Positions 6,201-60,480 of a stretch of 64,000 nucleotides of DNA are shown here, one piece after another. This stretch comes from Octopus vulgaris (Eukaryota). The stretch lies in assembly GCA_951406725.2 (NCBI GenBank), contig OX597819.1, forward strand, positions 132,990,001 through 133,054,000, read 5' to 3'. The position numbers were made by a program, and so were the translations under genes. How positions within the stretch are numbered: the stretch's first letter is position 1; each line of letters begins with the position of its first letter. The notes under the pieces were generated by a model. The model was not told where the DNA came from, searched no databases, and saw only the letters and a list, made by a program, of their open reading frames with translations.

Positions 6201-6202
6201 CA

Positions 6203-6517
6203 TTAATTAATCAATATAGGGTAGCAAAAAATTCAATAGAAATTTTTTCGCCACGGGCGATTAAAAACGTCGAAACAATGCATTGTCTAAAGATGAATAG
6301 GGTAAATGTTTTTTAATTTTCCTTTAATTTCTGAATTACTACTACTTGGCGGTTTCAGTCCTGGCTGCTCTTTCTAGTGGGTCGAATGGCCTATTAAGGC
6401 CGTTCCTCAATTGTTGTTGAATTTATATATATAGTCTCTGACTATTTTCTCTTTCTCACTAGACCGCTGGTGGCGGAAAAATTTCTATTGAATTTTTTGC
6501 TACCCTATATTGATTAA

Positions 6518-6522
<5 letters not shown>
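6203..6522 (+). mobile_element. Short element with ~50-bp terminal inverted arms and the 3' half of a hammerhead, ending in (TA)n
   Basis: 6203-6253 is near reverse complement of 6470-6522; GAAAC-AAUGCAUU-GUC at about 6271-6286. Confidence 0.6.
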
Positions 6523-6593: not shown

Positions 6594-6638
<45 letters not shown>

Positions 6639-6647
<9 letters not shown>

Positions 6648-8670
6648 GATAAATGCGATACAATAGAATTAATTATAATCGCCGGTGTACCAGTACATGC
6701 CATATATTATACATATATCATTACATTCAAGGCGAAGAGTGCACTAGATACACAATAGCTGGATAAATTTAGTGAGATGAAAATTAAAAACTTTTACAAA
6801 CTTAACTTTTCTTATACTGCAGTTTCGCCAAATTCAGTAATAAAAATAGTATTTATTTACTCAGGCTGGCTCTTCAGTAAGATTCCTGTTAATAATGGGA
6901 AGACCATATCAATAGACCCATGTGCGTCTATCGAAATGCTCTTTCTAAACTATTCAAAACACTGCGCAGACTCAGAACAAACCCGACAAAATAGGGGATT
7001 GTGGTATATCGTCTAACGGTCAGAAATTTATCGAGAGAATATGTAAACAAAGATAAATGCGATACAATAGAATTAATTATAATCGCCGGTGTACCAGTAC
7101 ATGCCATATATTATACATATATCATTACATTCAAGGCGAAGAGTGCACTAGATACACAATAGCTGGATAAATTTAGTGAGATGAAAATTAAAAACTTTTA
7201 CAAACTTAACTTTTCTTATACTGCAGTTTCGCCAAATTCAGTAATAAAAATAGTATTTATTTACTCAGGCTGGCTCTTCAGTAAGATTCCTGTTAATAAT
7301 GGGAAGACCATATCAATAGACCCATGTGCGTCTATCGAAATGCTCTTTCTAAACTATTCAAAACACTGCGCAGACTCAGAACAAACCCGACAAAATAGGG
7401 GATTGTGGTATATCGTCTAACGGTCAGAAATTTATCGAGAGAATATGTAAACAAAGATAAATGCGATACAATAGAATTAATTATAATCGCCGGTGTACCA
7501 GTACATGCCATATATTATACATATATCATTACATTCAAGGCGAAGAGTGCACTAGATACACAATAGCTGGATAAATTTAGTGAGATGAAAATTAAAAACT
7601 TTTACAAACTTAACTTTTCTTATACTGCAGTTTCGCCAAATTCAGTAATAAAAATAGTATTTATTTACTCAGGCTGGCTCTTCAGTAAGATTCCTGTTAA
7701 TAATGGGAAGACCATATCAATAGACCCATGTGCGTCTATCGAAATGCTCTTTCTAAACTATTCAAAACACTGCGCAGACTCAGAACAAACCCGACAAAAT
7801 AGGGGATTGTGGTATATCGTCTAACGGTCAGAAATTTATCGAGAGAATATGTAAACAAAGATAAATGCGATACAATAGAATTAATTATAATCGCCGGTGT
7901 ACCAGTACATGCCATATATTATACATATATCATTACATTCAAGGCGAAGAGTGCACTAGATACACAATAGCTGGATAAATTTAGTGAGATGAAAATTAAA
8001 AACTTTTACAAACTTAACTTTTCTTATACTGCAGTTTCGCCAAATTCAGTAATAAAAATAGTATTTATTTACTCAGGCTGGCTCTTCAGTAAGATTCCTG
8101 TTAATAATGGGAAGACCATATCAATAGACCCATGTGCGTCTATCGAAATGCTCTTTCTAAACTATTCAAAACACTGCGCAGACTCAGAACAAACCCGACA
8201 AAATAGGGGATTGTGGTATATCGTCTAACGGTCAGAAATTTATCGAGAGAATATGTAAACAAAGATAAATGCGATACAATAGAATTAATTATAATCGCCG
8301 GTGTACCAGTACATGCCATATATTATACATATATCATTACATTCAAGGCGAAGAGTGCACTAGATACACAATAGCTGGATAAATTTAGTGAGATGAAAAT
8401 TAAAAACTTTTACAAACTTAACTTTTCTTATACTGCAGTTTCGCCAAATTCAGTAATAAAAATAGTATTTATTTACTCAGGCTGGCTCTTCAGTAAGATT
8501 CCTGTTAATAATGGGAAGACCATATCAATAGACCCATGTGCGTCTATCGAAATGCTCTTTCTAAACTATTCAAAACACTGCGCAGACTCAGAACAAACCC
8601 GACAAAATAGGGGATTGTGGTATATCGTCTAACGGTCAGAAATTTATCGAGAGAATATGTAAACAAAGAT
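6639..8670 (-). repeat. Head-to-tail array of five 404-bp units (plus 12 bp), retrozyme-like
   Basis: Unit starts at 6639, 7043, 7447, 7851, 8255, 8659; identical 79-aa ORFs at 404-bp spacing in the ORF track; one HHR per unit; left end abuts (TA)n. Confidence 0.95.
6810..6882 (-). ncRNA. Type I hammerhead ribozyme, canonical core (copies also at 7214-7286, 7618-7690, 8022-8094, 8426-8498)
   Basis: UCUUA-CUGAAGA-GCCAG...UUGGC-GAAAC-UGCA-GUA/UAAGA: helix I UCUUA:UAAGA, helix II GCCAG:UUGGC, palindromic helix III ACUGCAGU, GUA cleavage triplet. Confidence 0.88.
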
Positions 8671-9100
8671 GATTGATTGATTGATTGATTCTAGTTTCAG
8701 CTTATGAGCTGTGGCCATGCTGGGGCACCGCCATTTGGTGTTACTACTTGGTTTCACTTCATGAAGGCTTTCTAGCAACTGCTATTTGGTGCATGAGAGA
8801 GTTCGATGCAGCTGCCCTCATCTGCCCCTCCTGCCGTGAAGTTGGTTCATCTGGGACACCTGACAGGAAGAGATCCAGCTTCATTTTAAAGACATCTGTA
8901 TCCACCCCATGCAGGTCTCTCAGGTTCTTCGGGAGGATATTGAAGAGCTGTGGGCCTCGGAAGCCCAGGCTATCACAGAATCTTGTCCTACATCTTGATG
9001 GCAAGTTTGGAGTCCTAGGCACCACGCAGTGGCGCCCAGTTCTGGCATTTGCGTAGCTCTCGATGCCAAAGTTCAGGACACTTCCCTCCAGGATCTTCCA

Positions 9101-9104
<4 letters not shown>
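8668..9104 (-). mobile_element. 3' end of APE-type (CR1/L2-like) LINE with (AATC)n tail
   Basis: WKILEG..N..RGPQLFNILPKNLR..FKMKLDLFLSGVPDEP..AAASNSL is a typical ORF2 C-terminus; (GATT)n at 8668-8690 on the + strand. Confidence 0.8.
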
Positions 9105-9169
<65 letters not shown>

Positions 9170-9207: not shown

Positions 9208-9940
9208 TTAACAATTGAGGATAAAATCTTTAAAAGAAATTATCAGTAGTCAGCGTGAAAAACCTCGTAAGAGAAAAAATCCGTAAATTCTTCCTCTTTG
9301 AAAATATTCATTTATATTATATTGAGGGTTCTACTATTCGTAGATACCAACACGCTAAGAGGGACCAATGCGGTCAAAACTACTAAAAAAAACAAACTTT
9401 TACCGAATGCAAAAATGGATTAGTAGTACCCTCAATATAATATAAATGAATATTTTCAAAGAGGAAGAATTTACGGATTTTTTCTCTTACGAGGTTTTTC
9501 ACGCTGACTACTGATAATTTCTTTTAAAGATTTTATCCTCAACTGTTAATTTATATTTTTCACCGGAATAGTTCAATACTGAATTTTTATTCCGACTAGA
9601 CAATTTGTTACCGAAATGCATTGCGAATAAGCCCGCCATTTTCATAGATATGTAAAGATAAACATTCGTACATGCTACGACGAATTCTACGGTTGGCTAT
9701 CGAGCTTGTAATGTTATGTTTTTCTCTTATATTTCTTGAGTTTGTTGCACTGATGAACACGAAATGCATATTCTGCATTAAATGCGAAATCACATGTGAT
9801 ATGTAACTGAATTCTTTTTTAAAATGATGTGTTTTGAAGTTTTGCATTCGGTAAAATTTTGTTAATTTTTATTAGTTTTGACCGCATTGGTCCCTCTTAG
9901 CGTGTTGGTATCTACGAATAGTAGTACCCTCAATATAATA
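9208..9940 (+). mobile_element. HHR-bearing non-coding element: inverted 5' arm + 498-bp monomer with terminal redundancy, between (TA)n tracts
   Basis: TAGTAGTACCCTCAATATAAT at both 9421 and 9919; 9208-9413 is the reverse complement of about 9844-9940 joined to 9421-9548. Confidence 0.85.
9744..9807 (+). ncRNA. Type I hammerhead ribozyme
   Basis: GUUGCA-CUGAUGA-(acacga AAUGCA uauuc UGCAUU aaaugc)-GAAAU-CACAUGUG-AUA/UGUAAC; 6-bp helix I, palindromic helix III, first helix II pair is an A.C mismatch. Confidence 0.75.
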
Positions 9941-10029: not shown

Positions 10030-11120
10030 AAACCGGAAGCCCCCCTGTACCAGTGGTTCTACAAAGAAATGAGAAATTAGAAAAACAGAAGAAAAAAGGA
10101 AGGACCGAAAACATAAATAAGGAGGGAAAGGGAAGAAAAGGCAAAACAACCAAAGCTGAAACCCCGACCCACCACACAAACAGCAGAGAACCCCATGGAG
10201 GATCCAATGCCACCCACTACACTTCAGGAAAGAAGAAATTTGGAAGGCACCGATGAACCTGTAAATTCTACTTGTGGGGCAAATGTCGGCATGGTGAGGA
10301 CGGCAAAAACTGCCGGTTCGCCCACCGACACCCCGCCAGAACTTCAGGGGACTCAAAGAGAAGAGCATTACTGAGGGTAGACAAAAGATGTCTCCCAGGA
10401 AAACTTTCAGAAAAGAAGCGTGCTCCTCAGATGTTCTGCGCAACGCAGCAGCTGAGCAAGAGTCTTTTTATGCATGACGCAAATAATTGTCCGGCAACTA
10501 TCCTGGCTACACCAAGCACAGAGAAGAAACCCTGCCCACCACTATGCAAGACCACCACAGTCAACAGACACGGGATTCCCCCCTAACGCCTGTACAGCCG
10601 TCACCCCAATACTTTTACTAAATATTGGGGGCCTGTTGCATCAAAATAGAAACAACATTTCTTTCCTGTGTGATCTTACTGCATGCAATCAAGCCCTATG
10701 CATAGCACTCGTGGAAACTCACCTCAGCCCTGATATAGAGGACGCAAAGGGACATATGCCAGACTATGCCATACTGCGAACAGACAGAAGGGAAAGGAGC
10801 CATGGTGGAGTTGATGTATACATTCGAGATGACCTTACACCCCAGGTCTTAATGACATACTCAAATTCGGTATGTGACACTTTAATTGTATACATAAGAC
10901 AACATAATATAGTCATATGCAATACATATTGCCCAGCAGATGCTCCAAATCACATAGGCACGTTTGAAGATTGCCTCACAAGAATTAAAGAAATCCTCAT
11001 GAATCTGGAACACCACGTGACCATATTTCTTATGGGTGATTTCAACTTCTCCAACGTCAAATAGCCCGAAGGTCTCATACTCTCAGGAATGAATCATTGC
11101 AAGCAAGTACAGGTGGAGTC
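10030..11120 (+). mobile_element. 5' part of APE-type LINE: ORF1 with CCCH zinc finger and start of ORF2 endonuclease (decayed)
   Basis: CKFYLWGKCRHGEDGKNCRFAH at about 10260-10325; LLNIGGL..IALVETHL..ILRTDRRERSHGGV..MGDFNF in ORF 10474-11064. Confidence 0.85.
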
Positions 11121-15748: not shown

Positions 15749-15802
15749 GTTTAAATATTTGTTGTGCAAGATTTTTTATGTGAAGTCGTGTGTTGAAACA
15801 GA

Positions 15803-16479
15803 TATTGTTATATTTCGGAATGGTCATATTGCCAGTTTAGCCAATAAAAACACACGCACTATATATTTGGTGTTATTTTGCTTCAGTGATATTTATTTTT
15901 TACATTAATCTTAATCTTATTTCGGCCAAAGTTCTTTCGTCACACTCCTGTGACCGCATCAGTGGTCCTTTGTTTTCTTCTCACTTACTTGTGTCTCTCC
16001 TTATTATTATTATTAGATTTATTATTATTATTACTAATATTGTTGTTATACATACATACAAGCATATGTAATGATAATAATGGGTGGATGTAAACACATG
16101 AACAAAATTAGAAAAAAAGCAACAACAACAAAAACAAAATACAAATTACAAGAATGTATATAACCAGAAGATACAAATATTACAGGCATCCCCCCACACA
16201 CACTAAATAAACATAGGCGCACATAGAGATATAAGCATGCGCAAATGAAGACATACAATAGAAATACAAAATGGCTGACGGTTAGTAAGGAGAGACACAA
16301 GTAAGTGAGAAGAAAACAAAGGACCACTGATGCGGTCACAGGAGTGTGACGAAAGAACTTTGGCCGAAATAAGATTAAGATTAATGTAAAAAATAAATAT
16401 CACTGAAGCAAAATAACACCAAATATATAGTGCGTGTGTTTTTATTGGCTAAACTGGCAATATGACCATTCCGAAATAT

Positions 16480-16485
<6 letters not shown>
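15803..16485. mobile_element. Element with ~200-bp inverted arms, each carrying an outward-facing HHR-like motif; right end in (TA)n
   Basis: 15803-16003 is the reverse complement of 16285-16485; ORFs 15886+ and 16203- share an identical translation. Confidence 0.85.
16321..16365 (+). ncRNA. Variant minimal hammerhead-like motif (mirror copy 15924-15968, minus strand)
   Basis: GGACCA-CUGAUGCG-GUCACA(GGAG)UGUGAC-GAAAG-AA-CUU/UGGCC; core deviates (A9 replaced by C). Confidence 0.55.
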
Positions 16486-16540
<55 letters not shown>

Positions 16541-16640: not shown

Positions 16641-16705
<65 letters not shown>

Positions 16706-16708
<3 letters not shown>

Positions 16709-17070
16709 GTGTAGGAAGAAACGAAGATTTAACAAAATTCCTTTTTATTATTTTCTACATATGTTTCAAAAGCTGCAAAGTCCCTAATTCGGATTGAATA
16801 AGGAGTCCATTTTGCAGCCTTCTCTTCAGGAAGGCTGCAAAATGGACTCCTTATTCAATCCGAATTAGGGACTTTGTAGCTTTTGAAACATATGTAGAAA
16901 ATAATAAAAAGGAATTTTGTTAAATCTTCGTTCAGCTCCATTTCTTCCTACACTAAATATATAAAACTTCAAATTTCCGCACTAAGGCACGGATTTTAGG
17001 CCCCATGGTCGTAACCTCAATCGTGCTTTTTCTGTTGTGATTTTTGCTACCCAGGTGTCGGTTATCATTA
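16706..17070 (+). mobile_element. Palindromic HHR element (same family as 55918-56431) next to (TA)n
   Basis: About 16701-16822 and 16830-16963 are inverted copies; tail TTTGCTACCCAGGTRTCGGTTA is shared with about 56369-56390. Confidence 0.85.
16753..16832 (-). ncRNA. Type I hammerhead ribozyme with long helix II
   Basis: UUC-CUGAAGA-GAAGGCUGCAAA...UUUGCAGCUUUU-GAAAC-AUAU-GUA/GAA. Confidence 0.75.
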
Positions 17071-17074
17071 CTAT

Positions 17075-17340
17075 AACCACGGGTCGACCAAAGTCTTTGT
17101 AGATGGAAACAGAAAGAATCTCGTTATATATATATATGTTTATGTGTCTGTTTTGTTCTCCCACCATTTGTTAACCGATGTTGGTATGTTTACGTCCCCG
17201 TATCTAGCGGTTCGGTAAAAGAGACCAATAGAATAAGTACTAGGCTTACAAAGAATAAGTTCTGGGATCGATTTGTTCGACTAAAGGCGGTGCTCCAGCA
17301 TGGACGTAGTCAAATGACTGAAACAATAAAAAAAAAAGAA
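17075..17340 (+). mobile_element. 5'-truncated SINE (family of 2049-2459)
   Basis: Shared body TAGAATAAGTACTAGGCTTACAAAGAATAAG and tail GCTCCAGCATGG..GTCAAATGACTGAAAC. Confidence 0.75.
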
Positions 17341-17457: not shown

Positions 17458-17464
<7 letters not shown>

Positions 17465-18859
17465 TTAAAATTACTAAGTCTCTCTAAAAGAGATTACGGC
17501 AACGTTCCTGGAAATTAATAGTTATCGCCATACTAATATGGCATTCTTATAAAAATAAGAAAAAAGCTGTCCGCTTATTAGCTCCATGAGGCCATCGCCT
17601 TAAGTTAGCTATTCGATACACAAACTGTATCCATATAACCTTCGAACAAGGGAGGTCAGTCGCTCCACACTACTTGACCGACAGCTACAGACGCGTTTCA
17701 GGGTATTTGCCCTTTGTCAATGCAGCGTAGTCAGACCCAGTAGGTGTCGCTTCTGACTATCTCTGTTCGAAGGTTTTATTTACCTAGTTTCGGTGGAATA
17801 CATCCACTTGTTTTCAATAACAGAAATATTAAAATTACTAAGTCTCTCTAAAAGAGATTACGGCAGCGTTCCTGGAAATTAATAGTTTTTCGCCATACTA
17901 ATATGGCATTCTTATAAAAGTAAGAAAACAGCTGTCCGCTTATTAGCTCCATGAGGCCATCGCCTTAAGTTAGCTATTCGATACACAAACTGTATCCATA
18001 TAACCTTCGAACAAGGGAGGTCAGTCGCTCCACACTACTTGACCGACAGCTACAGACGCGTTTCAGGGTATTTGCCCTTTGTCAATGCAGCGTAGTCAGA
18101 CCCAGTAGGTGTCGCTTCTGACTATCTCTGTTCGAAGGTTTTATTCACCTAGTTTCGGTGGAATACATCCACTTGTTTTCAATAACAGAAATATTAAAAT
18201 TACTAAGTCTCTCTAAAAGAGATTACGGCAGCGTTCCTGGAAATTAATAGTTATCGCCATACTAATATGGCATTCTTATAAAAATAAGAAAAAAGCTGTC
18301 CGCTTATTAGCTCCATGAGGCCATCGCCTTCAGTTAGCTATTCGATACACAAACTGTATCCATATAACCTTCGAACAAGGGAGGTCAGTCGCTCCACACT
18401 ACTTGACCGACAGCTACAGACGCGTTTCAGGGTATTTGCCCTTTGTCAATGCAGCGTAGTCAGACCCAGTAGGTGCCGCTTCTGACTATCTCTGTTCGAA
18501 GATTTTATTTACCTAGTTTCGGTGGAATACATCCACTTGTTTTCAATAATAGAAATATTAAAATTACTAAGTTTCTCTAAAAGAGATTACGGCAGCGTTC
18601 CTGGAATTCGAACAGAGATAGTCAGAAGCGACACCTACTGGGTCTGACTACACTGCATTGACAAAGGGAAAATACCCTGAAACGCGTCTGTAGCTGTCGG
18701 TCAAGTAGTGTGGAGCGACTGACCTCCCTTGTTCGAAGGTTAAATGGATACAGTTTGTGTATCGAATAGCTAACTTAAGGCGATGGCCTCATGGAGCTAA
18801 TAAGCGGACAGCTTTTTTCTTATTTTTATAAGAATGCCATATTAGTATGGCGATAACTA

Positions 18860-18863
<4 letters not shown>
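17458..18863 (-). repeat. Array of three 364/365-bp units + partial unit + inverted arm, between (TA)n tracts; retrozyme/Penelope-like
   Basis: Units start at 17458, 17822, 18187, 18551; inversion at GAATTC (18604-18609); 18607-18863 is the reverse complement of part of the unit. Confidence 0.93.
17684..17726 (-). ncRNA. Type I minimal hammerhead with U3-A8 core (copies 18049-18091 and 18413-18455 minus; 18652-18694 plus)
   Basis: GCUGCA-UUGACAA-AGGG(CAAAUA)CCCU-GAAAC-GC-GUC/UGUAGC; 6-bp helix I, palindromic ACGCGU, GUC triplet. Confidence 0.78.
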
Positions 18864-18920
<57 letters not shown>

Positions 18921-18925
18921 ATATA

Positions 18926-19940
18926 TCAGGTCATTAAGAATGAAATCTCTGATTTTCTTATGTACTAATTTTGACAGTCATTAACTCTAATGTTTTATCC
19001 TGACAATTCTTTGTTCTACAACATTGAAGAATTACATCATCACTTTTCAAAATGCAATTCATGGTGTCTGATTATATTGTGATTTTCCTCTTATAAATCA
19101 ACTTTTGTGAACCCATGGATAGATCAAAAATTTGTGTTGTTTATGAATATGAGTTCCATTGTGGAACCAATGCATCCCAGACAGTTCGAAACATCAATGA
19201 GGTGTTTGGTGAAGATGTGGCAAATGAGTGCACTGTACATCGATGGTTTGAGAGGTTTGGGTCTGGTGACTATACTCTTGAAACTCAGCCCCATGGTAGA
19301 CCTGAGACCAAGGTGGATAATGATGAGCTAGAAACTGTAGTGGCAGGGGATACATCTCACACTACATGTGAGTTAGCAGCAAGGTTTGATGTTTCGATTC
19401 CAACTGTATTGGACCAACTGAAACACATCAGCAAAGTAAAGAAGCTGGACAAGATGGGCACCACATGAACTGAACGAACATCAAATGGCTCGTCGTCTTG
19501 AAACTTGCTGTTCTTTGCAGTCACGGCATAAAAGCGAACCATTTTTGTATCGTATTGTTACGTGTGATGAGAAGTGGCTTCTTTTCAACAGTAGCAAGCG
19601 TTCTGCACCTTAGCTGGATAGTGACGAAGTGCCAAAGCACAATCCAAAACAGAGTGTTCACCAATAAAAGCTAATGATGTGTGTTTGGTGGTCCAGCACT
19701 GGTGTCATCCACTACAGCTTCATGAGATCTGGTAAGTCAATTACAGCGAATGTATACATCAAACGATTGGATGAAATGATGAGTGAATTTGCAATGAAAC
19801 AACCAGGATTGGTCAATAGAGATAAGTCAATTCTCTTGCAAGACAATGCTCGACCACATGTTGCACAAAGAACGATACTCAAGTCACAGGAACTGAACTT
19901 GGAATTACTGTCATCCACCATATACACCAGACCTTACATC
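18926..19940 (+). mobile_element. Decayed mariner transposon (DD34D-type transposase pseudogene), 3'-truncated
   Basis: HTH N-terminus in ORF 19115-19468; frameshifted WAPHEL, IVTCDEKW, LQDNARPH, HPPYTPDL motifs; in-frame stops. Confidence 0.9.
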
Positions 19941-20750
19941 ATGTTTTCCAGGTATTAGAATGGTTGCTTAGCACTAGGTCCAAAATACTTTGGTTATTTC
20001 TGGTTGGTTCATGGACGAGTTGTGAGAGGAAAAAATTATCAATAAATTTAAAAAGTAACTCTACTGCTGCCTCGTCTGAACTTGAGGTGAACGTTCCTGG
20101 TCTAACAATATCAGTTGACCAGTCTACAGAGGGGAGGTTGAAGTCGTGCATCAATAGAATGTTTCCTTGGTTACTTTGCAGGAGGAAAGATTTGAGGCAC
20201 TCTTGGAAATAGTGTAAGGGAGCTTGTGTGTGTGTGTGTGTGTGTGGTGGGGGCTCTGTAGAGCCCAATCACAGACAGGTCTTTACTTTTGTTGTGTACA
20301 GAGACTGATTCGCAGTAGCCGTTGGAGAAAATGTCCTTGGCATCTGCGCTAAAAGAATCATAGAGGAAAATAACAACTGTGCCCTTTCTTTGGCCTGCCC
20401 GATCAGGGCGCATGGCAGCGAAGTGTCTGATTTTCAGTTCAACCTCTAAATGGCGGTCGTTTAGATGGGTCTCAGTTAGGACAAAGGAAGGCATTCGGTG
20501 TGTGTGCGTGCTGCAAGCCATCCCTCAGTGTAGGGTGTTTTCCATTTTTGAGCCTTGATGGTTGACATCTCGGATATTAAGGAGGAACTTCATTGCAGCA
20601 GCTTCGTTGTGTTTCTTAAGGATCCGCACATCATGTTTGTTGTTGTTGTTGTTGTTGATATTGTTGTTGCTACTCAGTGGCAGTAGCAAGGTTGTTTTTC
20701 GCTTTCGGTTGGTAGCAGAGGTTGAGCACTTCTCCGGGTTTCAATCGCCA
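19941..20750 (-). mobile_element. APE endonuclease region of a decayed LINE abutting the truncated mariner
   Basis: LTETHL..RPDRAGQRKG..GLYRAP..HDFNLPSVDW..QLVHEPTR..ILDLVLSN across ORFs 20171-20521 and 19939-20268. Confidence 0.85.
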
Positions 20751-47145: not shown

Positions 47146-47226
<81 letters not shown>

Positions 47227-47431
47227 GAAATATGTTACGAAAAGAAAATATCAAATACACGTGGAAATGTAAGGATAAAATATGAAAAATCAACGAAAAT
47301 GCATATTGCAAATAGAAAAAGGCTATTTAAGACAGGTAACGACAAATATATACATTTAGATTGACTGAGGTAGTAATACGAGTCATAAAAGTCATTATTA
47401 TGAGATGATAATAAAGTAAGAGAACAAAACG

Positions 47432-47533
47432 AAAAATATGGAACGCTTCACGACTTTGCGTGTCATCCTTGCGCAGGGGCCATGCTAAACCTCTCTGGAT
47501 CGTTCCAATTTTAGTATATGTACTGCCGAAGCG
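47432..47533 (-). pseudogene. U6: U6 snRNA copy (first ~5 nt missing, core substitutions)
   Basis: CGCTTCGGCAGTACATATACTAAAATTGGAACGATCCAGAGAGGTTTAGCATGGCCCCTGCGCAAGGATGACACGCAAAGTCGTGAAGCGTTCCATATTTTT matches metazoan U6; upstream promoter region is replaced by the inverted arm. Confidence 0.93.
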
Positions 47534-47573
47534 CAAGGATGACACGCAAAGTCGTGAAGCGTTCCATATTTTT
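47531..47573 (+). pseudogene. U6: Inverted duplicate of the U6 3' part
   Basis: GCGCAAGGATGACACGCAAAGTCGTGAAGCGTTCCATATTTTT. Confidence 0.9.
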
Positions 47574-47849
47574 CGTTTTGTTCTCTTACTTTATTATCAT
47601 CTCATAATAATGACTTTTATGACTCGTATTACTACCTCAGTCAATCTAAATGTATATATTTGTCGTTACCTGTCTTAAATAGCCTTTTTCTATTTGCAAT
47701 ATGCATTTTCGTTGATTTTTCATATTTTACCCCTATATATATATATATATAACGGGAAGCTTTATGAAAATAAACAGAAGACGAAGGCAGGTGGAAAACA
47801 AACGAACAATTGTATTAGTATGGCGCTCAGGAAATATAAATAAAACAAG

Positions 47850-47959: not shown

Positions 47960-48567
47960 GGGTGAAATATAATTAATTTAATAAAATCAACAAATTTCAC
48001 CAAGTAGTATTTCGGTATGGAAAAGGACCATATTCGGTAAAAGTTTGTATAATTATAACAAAGAGGGTCTTTGCAACGAGTTGCTAGACCACAAACCGAA
48101 AGTATTAGAAATAGCAGCCAGAGGACTGTTATTTCTTTTACTACAAAAATATGTCTCCACAGCCAACAGTATTTGTAACTCATTATGTGGCAAAAACAGA
48201 AGAAAAATAATTCTGGAGGACAATACGAATTCACTTGTCTATATAAATGTGGATATGCTGATTGGCTTCTGTATGCCCCGATTTCGCCTGGTCGGAAATA
48301 TGGAGGGTAAGATTTCCTAGCATTTCTAGATTTATTTACCGGAATATTATGTTGATAAAGGAAATGAATCTTTGATTATAATCCAGAAACGTACGTGGAC
48401 TGTTTGATTTCGTTATTTTTCTTCTTTTTTTGCCACATAATGAGTTACAAATACTGTTGTCTGTGGAGACATATTTTTGTAGTAAAAGAAATAACAGTCC
48501 TCTGGCTGCTATTTCTAATACTTTCGGTATGTGGTCTAGCAACCTGTTGCAAAGACCCTCTTTGTTA

Positions 48568-48573
<6 letters not shown>
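47960..48573. mobile_element. Element with ~155-bp inverted arms ending in (TA)n
   Basis: 48050-48205 versus 48418-48573 with few mismatches; mirrored ORF translations. Confidence 0.85.
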
Positions 48574-48633
<60 letters not shown>

Positions 48634-55821: not shown

Positions 55822-56533
<712 letters not shown>

Positions 56534-57862: not shown

Positions 57863-59916
57863 TAGTCTTATTTTTATAGCGTGCTTTCACTTCACTACCG
57901 AGCGCAGTTCTGCGTACCTTAGGTATGTGCTATGATTTGTTGTGATGCTCTGATGGTTATTGTATGGAAAGTGTTCTGCATAAGATGTGTGCAGTGCCTA
58001 GTAGTGCAATTTTCTGTATGTTATATCTGTTTGTAAGTCCTGGTGTTTTTGTTATGTATTTGTCTGAATATTTTTTATCATGCCTAATGCACCTACTATG
58101 ATAGGAATTGTTTCTGTTTTTAGATTCCACATTCTGGTTACCTCTATTTCCAGGTCTTTGTATTTTGAGAGTTTCTCCATTTCTTTTAGAGACACGTTGT
58201 CATCTGCCGGTATTGATACATCAATTAGAAAGCATTTTTTTCTTCATGATCTCTGACAACTATATCTGGTCTGTTGGCCTTAATTTCTCTATCTGTGTGT
58301 ATCGGCATATCCCAGAGTATGGTTGCTTTCTCGTTTTCTGTGACCTTTTCTGGTGTGTGCCTATACCATCTTTTTTCTGTTGTTATTCCATAATGTTGGC
58401 ATAGCTTCCAGTGTATGTAGGTTCCAACTCTGTCATGTCTGTGAATATATTCCTTCTTAGCCAGGACTGGGCAGCCAGAGATAATATGATTTATTGTTTC
58501 TTGTCCATCTCCACATATTCTGCAGTTACTTGTTATATTTCTTTTCATTACATGTTTTTGGTAATTTCTGGTGGGGAGGCTTTGGTTTTGTGCTGCAATT
58601 AAAAATCCCTCTGTCTCTGCTTTGAGTCCTGAGCTTCTCAACCATTGCTGGGATTTTTCCTTGTCTATTTCTTTTGCGTTTAGTTTAGTCCAGTATTTAC
58701 CATGAAGGGGCTTTTCTTGCCATCGTTTTATCATGGTTCGTTGCTGTTCTGTTTTTAGTTTGGATTTCATTTGTTTTATAGCTTTTGTTGTTTCTTCTTC
58801 TTCTTCTTCTTCTTCTTCTTCTTCTTCTTCTTCTTCTTCTTCTTCTTCTTCTTCTTCTTCTTCTTCTTCTTCTTCTTCTTCTTCTTCTTCTTCTTCTTCA
58901 TATTTATTAGGTGGTATGATTTCTTGTTTGTATTTGTCAGCTTCCTTAAATACTGAGAACAGTTTTTTGTCTTGCTCGTGTTTTGCCGCTATTTGTATCA
59001 GTTTTCCTTCCTTCTGAAGTAGATATTTTTGCAGTCCTATGGTGGTTATTTTATAGTAGTTTTCCAGCTGTATAAGGCCTCTACCACCTTCTATACGTTG
59101 TATATATAGTCTTTCAATGTCAGATTTTGGGTGGTGCATCCTAGATCCTGTCATTATTTTTCTTATTTTCCTATGTATTTTGGTCAGTTCATTTAGTGTC
59201 CAGTTAAGGATATTGTAGCTGTAACTTATAACTGGGACAGCTAAAGTGTTAATAACTATTATCTTGTTTTTAGCATTGAGCTCTGTTTTTAGTATTGATC
59301 TAACTCGTCTATAATATTCTTTTTTTATGTTCTCTTTCATTTGTGTGTGTTGTGTCTTATCTAGTTCATGGATTCCTAAGTATTTGTAAGTTTGGCTTTG
59401 GTCTAATTCTTTTATTTCATTGGTTTTATCTAGTGTGATGTTGTTACTCTTAACTAGTTTTCCTCTTTTCATGGTTACTTTGGCACATTTTTCTAATCCA
59501 AATTTCATATCTATTTCTTTGGTAAATCCATGAACTGTCTTTAGTGGCTGATCGTTTTGCCGTAACATTTATATCCGCATCCAGTTCTATTTAGCATATC
59601 AGATAGAGGTGACAGTGCCAAGCAGAAAAGGAGTGGAGAGAGCGTGTCTCCCTGGAATATTCTAATGGGGATGGCTTTGGTTTATCATGAGTTCCTCTTT
59701 TGTTTGGAGCTGTAGCACGGTTTGCCATTTATTCATAGAGTGCCCTATGAATTTTATAAGGGTTGGTGCTACTTTGTTAATGGCTAGTGTTTCGAGGATA
59801 CATATGTGGGGGATGCTATCAAACGCTTTTGTGTAGTCGATCCAGGCCATACTGAGGCCTTTCTTCTTTCTCTGGCTGTCTTCAGTTATGGCTTTATTAA
59901 TCATTAGTTGATCTTG
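57860..59916 (-). mobile_element. 5'-truncated R4/Dong-like LINE (RT, CCHC knuckle, RLE) inside a (TAA)n tract
   Basis: AWIDYTKAFDSI, IFQGDTLSPLLF, YKYLGI, HHPKSDIERLY, CRICG..ETINHIISGC, RHD, NRPDIVV; frameshifts; TAA repeats on both sides. Confidence 0.95.
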
Positions 59917-59979
<63 letters not shown>

Positions 59980-60480
59980 GAGTGAGAGAGTAGTGCATGC
60001 CATCAAAGTGACACGGGTAAAATATACGAAACCCAGTATACCCATCATGACTACCCGTCTGATAAGGGTACACCAAGTACATGCATCACAACCATATGTG
60101 CGCGACATGGTGATCTCATATCAACATAAACAGCGCATGACCTTGCAGGTGGGGCCTAGTTAGAATTTTCTCCTGGTCGAGTAACCCATCCCGCACAAAA
60201 GGTCCCTGAATAAGGATTGTTTAAGGATGTTGAACGAATCATCCATGTTTCCAGAGGTGAATTAACCAACCTCTAAGCATTCCTTTCAACACACGGCTAT
60301 GATGTTCCCCAACTACTTCTGCTCATGATCAGAGATGCACATATCGTCAGCCACTAAGGGACATGCTCAACTGGTTATGGTCAAACAACTGACAAGCAAC
60401 TCTGCGGTATTGAGCAGAATATTTGCTGTAGCCCATCTTTTATAGCAAGACAAAACAATGTACATGATAACACTTCCAAT
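59980..60480 (-). mobile_element. Probable non-coding repeat whose minus-strand 3' end runs into (TAA)n
   Basis: More GC-rich block starting abruptly at the TAA tract; no protein motif seen. Confidence 0.4.

What the first reader, a model, noticed from the sequence alone, without database searches (positions are those of the whole stretch)
6639..8670. Five apparently identical 404-bp units, each with a canonical hammerhead: young retrozyme-like array
Seen: exact 404-bp period, no differences noticed between units, and a perfect HHR core with all three helices on the minus strand. The array starts at (TA)n at a point unrelated to the cleavage site. Known: retrozyme multimer transcripts self-cleave to monomers that circularise. 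Inference: the array is one rolling-circle reverse-transcription product of a 404-nt circular RNA.
Basis: partly seen in the sequence, partly recalled or inferred. Interest (0 to 1): 0.8.

Follow-up and report, generated by a model that had tools for sequence, protein, structure and literature searches.

The report
Young hammerhead retrozyme array, octopus-like genome
Five letter-perfect 404-base repeats, each with a hammerhead RNA motif predicted to cut itself, sit beside a TA microsatellite in a likely octopus genome; this is likely a recent insertion of a known animal parasitic element (a retrozyme), likely copied from one circular RNA, which would make the unproven rolling-circle idea checkable from genomes.

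Summary
Confirmed: 6635-8670 is 5.04 exact copies of a 404-bp non-coding unit, each with a type I hammerhead on the minus strand. Helix III is only 2 bp plus a palindromic loop: the monomer is predicted to be self-blocked and two units to pair. The head-to-tail unit exists in 3 of 4 other sequencing runs, so it is a real repeat family. All five units share two letters absent from all 4 runs and one that is a minority there, i.e. they descend from one template unit. Both ends lie 164-180 nt from the cut site and one is in (TA)n, where the window's other hammerhead inserts show Penelope-like anatomy. It is a new member of the animal non-LTR retrozymes; I found none reported from cephalopods in the searchable library. 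Rolling-circle copying of one circle is the best reading (0.5), not shown. A neighbouring 364-bp array looks made from a linear multimer, the ends are oddly in phase, the circle is not unusually structured, and the one RNA-guessed run shows no enrichment.

The parts
6635..8670 (-). Array of 5.04 identical 404-bp non-coding units (34% GC); terminal redundancy 12-16 nt
6802..6892 (-). Type I hammerhead, unit 1, with extended stem I; core 6877-6871, palindromic helix III 6823-6816, predicted cut 6815/6814
7206..7296 (-). Hammerhead, unit 2; predicted cut 7219/7218
7610..7700 (-). Hammerhead, unit 3; predicted cut 7623/7622
8014..8104 (-). Hammerhead, unit 4; predicted cut 8027/8026
8418..8508 (-). 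Hammerhead, unit 5; predicted cut 8431/8430
6815..7218 (-). One predicted cut-to-cut monomer (404 nt), the candidate circular RNA; four such monomers lie between the five cuts
6597..6638 (.). 42-nt (TA)n tract, inferred target and primer; last 4 nt match the unit (microhomology)
8671..8690 (-). (GATT)5, tail of the adjacent LINE, directly abutting the array's 5' end (ribozyme sense)
8691..9104 (-). 3' piece of an APE-RT LINE (84% to P0001), very high copy in 4 of 4 runs, 5' end joined to (TA)n at 9105 by microhomology
17458..18864 (-). Comparator, a different family: 364-bp unit x3.2 plus an inverted 258-bp copy, minimal hammerheads with U3-A8 core, (TA)n on both sides

Best explanation
The array is five identical hammerhead-bearing units of a real tandem repeat family, likely a young non-autonomous retrozyme insertion that was likely made by a Penelope-like reverse transcriptase priming in the (TA)n tract and running about five times round one 404-nt circular RNA. 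Shown: identity, motif, flanks, the family's presence in other runs, letters shared by all units. Inferred steps: (1) a donor array is transcribed, likely by Pol II read-through, since five T4-5 runs per unit would stop Pol III; (2) neighbouring hammerheads pair their palindromic helix III and cut as a double hammerhead, releasing 404-nt monomers; (3) a host ligase closes the circle, in which the core is predicted to pair with the palindrome and stay switched off; (4) a Penelope-like endonuclease nicks the TA tract just behind an older LINE tail, the DNA end primes at ATAT inside the unit, 180 nt from the cut, and strand-displacement synthesis gives 5.04 copies, each bearing the donor unit's three private changes; (5) the far end is joined by a 2-nt AT microhomology.
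For: 0 differences in 2036 bp, against 14 singleton differences in 1407 bp of the neighbouring array; P of zero at that rate is 1.6e-9. So the assembly keeps unit differences, and this array is much younger (upper 95% divergence 0.15%). In one search the window letters at 8282 and 8314 have zero depth in 4 of 4 runs. At 8510 the letter is at most 9% in X2, 0.2% in X14 and absent in X11, while X1's remainder is a divergent contig. All five units carry all three letters, and 8314 is a CpG-to-TpG change, i.e. a DNA-aged donor unit copied into every repeat. The head-to-tail joint stands in 3 of 4 runs, and X1 assembles the unit as a 434-nt contig (404+30). In a two-unit transcript the palindrome duplex forms with P 0.88-0.95, and the double hammerhead is 7.8 kcal/mol better than two single ones. 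In the circle a blocking helix forms with P about 0.6. This matches the dimer-on, monomer-off model in PMC4209133. Penelope RT primes internally after AT-rich nicks (PMC11167929). The window has further (TA)n-flanked inverted inserts of Penelope anatomy. The rolling-circle model is the one proposed in PMC7229834.
Against: No RNA evidence: the unit-to-LINE depth ratio in the RNA-guessed run X11 (0.0022) equals that in DNA runs X1 and X2 (0.0017, 0.0024; a rough measure only). The circle folds no better than shuffles (z -0.4). Even the double hammerhead lies 5.3 kcal/mol above the free minimum at 37 C, and its cross stem I has P about 0.01. Only 1 of 9 predicted Xenopus retrozyme dimers cut in vitro. 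The two ends are in phase within 16 nt, 4% under random stopping. The neighbouring array's tandem part ends exactly where its inverted copy begins, which fits a linear multimer better than a circle. Penelope RT used uncleaved RNA as its main substrate in vitro. Ribozyme-less Chlamys elements also make head-to-tail multimers. No Penelope ORF was found in 121 frames of the window. Contigs drop rare variants, so the absence of the window letters in other runs is not proof of privacy.
Confidence: 0.5

Rival explanations
1. Same element and helper, but the template was a linear, uncleaved read-through transcript of a young, homogeneous donor array; priming began at a fixed internal site and stopped at a second start site five units upstream.
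For: The neighbouring array's tandem 5' end (alignment column 56) abuts the start of its inverted copy (column 57), a twin-priming-like signature on one contiguous RNA of about 3.9 units (twin priming is recalled, not read). Uncleaved RNA was the main substrate of a Penelope RT, which has two adjacent internal start sites (PMC11167929). This would explain the in-phase ends. Cleavage is predicted to be weak.
Against: It needs a donor of more than 5 identical units sharing three private changes, so a single-unit bottleneck is only moved one step back. There is no inverted copy at this locus. The neighbour is another family with a minimal hammerhead.
Confidence: 0.27
2. One 1.04-unit retrozyme copy inserted long ago, gathered three mutations, and was recently expanded in place to five units by unequal exchange or DNA re-replication (satellite birth).
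For: Three changes in 404 nt (0.7%) is close to the adjacent LINE piece's two near-private letters in about 377 nt and to the neighbour's 1.0%. The 2026 preprint favours local amplification of Penelope pLTRs into tandems.
Against: An old copy should be shared by other individuals, yet the window letters at 8282 and 8314 have zero depth in 4 of 4 runs, while rare letters do survive in the LINE part. The first step needs recombination between 12-16-nt repeats.
Confidence: 0.13
3. The family is real but the number of units here, or their identity, is an assembly or polishing artefact.
For: No contig spans the whole stretch, and the array-LINE junction (8660-8697) was skipped as a repeat. No run holds more than 0.58 of the words. 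No source reads or genome were available.
Against: Polishing with family reads would give the family letters, not private ones. The neighbouring array keeps 14 unit-level differences. Both junctions are clean and have microhomology.
Confidence: 0.07
4. The unit is simply the pseudo-LTR of an autonomous Penelope-like element, and the array is a stack of 5'-truncated 3' ends.
For: 24 of 57 Xenopus retrozyme families match known elements, 21 of the 22 matched elements being Penelope-like, at their pLTRs. The target is (TA)n.
Against: The hammerhead is canonical (extended stem I, C3-G8, 2-bp helix III), not the minimal pLTR type. In X1 and X11 all depth at the unit boundary goes back head-to-tail, and only three loose ends inside the unit appear among the 24 of 396 shown. 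The unit has no ORF over 79 aa.
Confidence: 0.03

Closest known systems
Metazoan non-LTR retrozymes (Cervera and de la Pena 2020, PMC7229834; parts 2-4 of 6 read, supplement unreadable), closest the mussel 350-390-nt family
   Same: Tandem non-coding unit in the 150-450 bp range, GC below 50%, one type I hammerhead per unit with a short palindrome-capped helix III, no LTR anatomy; mollusc host likely.
   Different: Circle not more self-paired than shuffles (z -0.4). The hammerhead is predicted to be blocked by its own sequence in the circle, whereas the paper finds most animal circles free to fold it. Stem II carries a 34-nt hairpin insert. The target is (TA)n with no readable duplication. Expression is not shown.
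Penelope-like elements and their pLTR hammerheads (PMC4209133, parts 1-2 of 4; PMC8557442 and its preprint, passages; PMC11167929, parts 1-2 of 4)
   Same: (TA)n target, head-to-tail copies, internal priming away from the ribozyme cut, dimer-type hammerhead. The neighbour at 17458-18864 has the full tandem-plus-inverted anatomy and the U3-A8 core.
   Different: No ORF, no inverted copy, canonical rather than minimal hammerhead; no autonomous partner identified.
Vertebrate retrozymes as pLTR derivatives (Li, Clavereau, Pollet, bioRxiv 10.64898/2026.07.22.740005; parts 1-3 of 5 read)
   Same: Meets their 'active' pattern (hammerhead in at least two consecutive units); five units is typical (75% of families have at most seven).
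   Different: They sampled no mollusc and lean to local satellite-type amplification; the shared private letters here point to a one-unit template.

Membership tests
Metazoan non-LTR retrozyme | Head-to-tail repeat of about 150-450 bp | tested here: met
   404 bp x 5.04; joint in 3 of 4 runs
Metazoan non-LTR retrozyme | Type I hammerhead with full core in each unit | tested here: met
   5 of 5 units; 0 of 40 simulated windows; intact in an X11 contig with 0 differences over 8391-8503; no Rfam call
Metazoan non-LTR retrozyme | No protein coding, GC below 50% | tested here: met
   GC 0.34; longest ATG frames 59 and 79 aa; no Pfam hit for the 85-aa frame 6759-7013
Metazoan non-LTR retrozyme | No LTR pair flanking an internal region, no PBS or PPT | tested here: inconclusive
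   No LTR-internal-LTR layout; PBS and PPT not searched
Metazoan non-LTR retrozyme | Target duplication longer than 4 bp when present | tested here: inconclusive
   One end is in (TA)n, the other abuts a LINE tail; the 12-16-nt end repeat belongs to the unit itself
Metazoan non-LTR retrozyme | Monomer predicted as a highly self-paired circle (described trait, not quantified in the paper) | tested here: inconclusive
   59% of bases paired, but z -0.42 against 60 shuffles; the neighbour's unit gives z -7.0
Metazoan non-LTR retrozyme | Self-cleavage and abundant linear and circular monomer RNA | not testable with these tools
   Only contigs were available; X11 (RNA is a guess) shows no enrichment over DNA runs
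Penelope-like element (autonomous) | RT plus GIY-YIG ORF between pLTRs | tested here: not met
   None at the locus; no such Pfam hit in 121 window frames (8, 113; 227 frames passed the filter)
Penelope-like element (autonomous) | Tandem or inverted insertions biased to microsatellites | tested here: met
   Tandem, 3' end in a 42-nt (TA)n; no inverted copy
Penelope-like element (autonomous) | Unit homologous to the pLTR of an autonomous partner | not testable with these tools
   No genome held
Plant LTR retrozyme | Type III hammerheads in paired LTRs | tested here: not met
   Type I topology, five-unit tandem

The most novel reading that the evidence does not exclude
A retrozyme family is spreading now in octopods by true rolling-circle reverse transcription of circular RNA: each array is a clone of one circle, primed and ended in the same small hairpin of the RNA, and the family is about 20-fold more abundant in organism B than in organism A. 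Its arrays would then be the first genomic proof of the rolling-circle step, readable from array-private mutations and end phases. A template jump onto LINE RNA at this locus is not excluded.
Probability: 0.3. Interest if true: 0.65.

Novelty: new member of a known kind. Interest (0 to 1): 0.42.

Why it matters
Animal retrozymes are known, and one more species is unsurprising. What is open is how they reach new sites: rolling-circle copying of the circle by a Penelope-like enzyme is proposed (PMC7229834, PMC4209133), while a 2026 preprint leans to local amplification. A very young family whose arrays carry array-private letters in every unit lets this be tested from long-read genomes alone. 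The same window holds an older array of another family that seems to have used a linear template, a built-in contrast.

Tried and rejected
No whole genome is held, so permuted ends at other loci could not be tested; the loose-end table showed 24 of 396 rows, mostly LINE. Rfam gave no hammerhead hit. ARAGORN found 0 genes, so a tRNA module like that in finding e1-7810660 is not supported. The hammerhead pattern had 0 hits in metagenome and viral contigs. A 20-nt pattern hit 2 metagenome contigs with identical context; these share only 21 nt and lack stem II, so I rejected them as chance. The end repeat as a target duplication is rejected: the 404-nt joint stands in other runs and in an approximately 88%-identical subfamily. 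Template jumping between cleaved linear monomers is rejected: neither end is at the cut. RNA editing as the source of the shared letters is rejected: there is no A-to-G pattern on the ribozyme strand, and one change is CpG decay. Co-insertion of array and LINE by a template switch is disfavoured, not excluded: P 0.024 that both near-private letters fall in the LINE part. I dropped the idea that the end region is conserved across subfamilies, because only 40 of 58 difference rows were shown. A 7-bp hairpin holding both ends has only P 0.22-0.37, a weak hint. Our earlier findings held nothing for this genome or sequence. Literature searches for cephalopod or octopus retrozymes or hammerheads listed no paper describing one. 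The supplement of PMC7229834 and bioRxiv supplements could not be seen and may list cephalopods.

Full report
Observation. The period-404 identity run spans 6635-8670, 2036 bp, 5.04 units, with no mismatch. [quoted passage not shown] A relaxed descriptor gave 10 hits in the window and none in 40 of 40 Markov-simulated windows. Rfam found only a U6 copy in the window and nothing relevant in the unit at E<=10. The unit is 34% GC and its longest ATG frames are 59 and 79 aa.

Surroundings and host. On the ribozyme strand the order is (TA)n, a 5'-truncated LINE 3' piece (9104-8691), its tail (8690-8671), the array, and a 42-nt (AT)n tract. The LINE piece is 84% identical to an APE-RT protein (P0001), and its best named relative is from Argonauta hians at 62%. 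An octopod host is therefore inferred; run organisms are coded and were left so. The array's 3' end shares ATAT with the tract and lies 180 nt downstream of the cut. Its 5' end lies 164 nt downstream, so the ends are in phase within 12-16 nt. The window holds several other (TA)n-flanked inserts with inverted arms, two of them with hammerheads (17458-18864, 55918-56431), and an inverted U6 copy. Tandem and inverted structure, tails and a (TA)n bias are Penelope-like hallmarks (Craig et al., passages). The same paper says that cephalopod Naiads are long dead, so the helper would be another clade. No Penelope ORF was seen in 121 scanned frames.

Other samples. 20 of 24 listed runs (9 studies) hold the stretch or part of it, 17 hold half the words or more, and the best share is 0.58. 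Four runs were laid on 8240-9100 (contigs only). The head-to-tail joint 'goes back 404' stands in X1, X2 and X11 and is not listed for X14. X1 assembles the unit as a 434-nt contig. A subfamily about 88% identical shares the joint. So the tandem unit is a real family, not an invention of this assembly. The window letters at 8282 and 8314 have zero depth in 4 of 4 runs and that at 8510 is a minority, yet all five units carry them. 8314 is a CpG-to-TpG change. The array therefore passed through a one-unit template that had aged in DNA. The caveat is that contigs drop rare variants and 40 of 58 difference rows were shown. Summed depth is no copy number, but the unit-to-LINE ratio is 0.0017-0.0024 in X1, X2 and X11 and 0.042 in X14 (organism B). 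That hints at lineage-specific amplification and shows no enrichment in the RNA-guessed run. The array-LINE junction was skipped as a repeat and remains untested.

Age. The neighbouring 364-bp array has 14 singleton differences in 1407 bp; zero in 2036 bp at that rate has P 1.6e-9. The assembly thus keeps unit differences, and this array is young (below 0.15%). The LINE piece has two near-private letters (8743, 9056), which favours the LINE being older than the array (P 0.024 for co-insertion), although RT errors or a rare source copy could explain them.

Predicted RNA behaviour. In a circular monomer stem II forms (P 0.77-0.94 at 37 C), helix III does not (0.00), and the active fold costs 6.1 kcal/mol. 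The core pairs with the palindrome (P about 0.6). In a two-unit transcript the palindromes pair (P 0.88-0.95), and the double hammerhead is 7.8 kcal/mol better than two single ones. It is still 5.3 kcal/mol above the free minimum, with the cross stem I at P about 0.01. This fits dimer-on, monomer-off control (PMC4209133), but activity is not assured: 1 of 9 Xenopus dimers cut. The circle is no more structured than shuffles (z -0.4), unlike the neighbour's unit (z -7.0). Five T4-5 runs per unit argue against Pol III multimers (inference).

Mechanism. I commit to rolling-circle target-primed reverse transcription of one circular monomer by a Penelope-like enzyme (0.5), because it explains identical units with shared private letters in one step. 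The strongest rival is a linear uncleaved multimer (0.27). The neighbour's tandem ends at column 56 and its inverted copy starts at column 57, as expected of two primers on one linear RNA (twin priming, recalled; search listed no Penelope paper on it). A Penelope RT starts at two adjacent internal sites and prefers uncleaved RNA in vitro (PMC11167929), and this would explain the in-phase ends. Local expansion of an old monomer (0.13), an assembly artefact (0.07) and a pLTR stack (0.03) follow.

Comparison and verdict. It meets the testable sequence criteria of metazoan non-LTR retrozymes (PMC7229834; preprint); cleavage and expression are untested. Searches listed no paper describing a cephalopod retrozyme, but unread supplements and subscription papers may hold one. 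Earlier notes of this scan list 76 hammerhead-retrozyme findings in at least 32 genomes, so the kind is common. New member of a known kind; interest 0.42, chiefly as a test case for the unproven rolling-circle step.

Noticed in passing
window 17458-18864: Second hammerhead array: 364-bp unit x3.2 plus an inverted 258-bp copy, U3-A8 minimal core, (TA)n on both sides, strongly structured unit (z -7.0). The tandem's 5' end abuts the start of the inverted copy, as if two primers used one linear RNA.
   Followed up: partly
window 55918-56431 and 16699-17085: (TA)n-flanked inverted insert with a hammerhead at 56156-56228 (+; long stem II, palindromic helix III), and an approximately 75-80% related copy at 16699-17085 with no hammerhead hit.
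   Followed up: partly
window 47224-47738: U6 snRNA copy (47534-47432, minus) with downstream flank, duplicated head-to-head between (TA)n tracts; one arm is 43 nt longer. It looks like a U6 read-through RNA retroposed by Penelope-like machinery.
   Followed up: no
window 6202-6522, 9208-9549, 15802-16487, 48048-48575: Further inverted-arm inserts next to (TA)n (arms 53, 132, 205 and 163 bp); 6202-6522 lies just left of the array.
   Followed up: no
window 8240-8670 in run X14: The unit-to-LINE depth ratio is about 20-fold higher in organism B than in three runs of organism A; a rough hint of a lineage-specific burst.
   Followed up: partly
window 58228-60120, 570-1067, 10456-11064, 19097-19955, 19942-20524: Broken LINE pieces (zf-RVT and AP-endonuclease hits; 570-1067 resembles the end of 58228-59568 by eye, no Pfam hit) and a mariner-type transposase remnant.
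   Followed up: no
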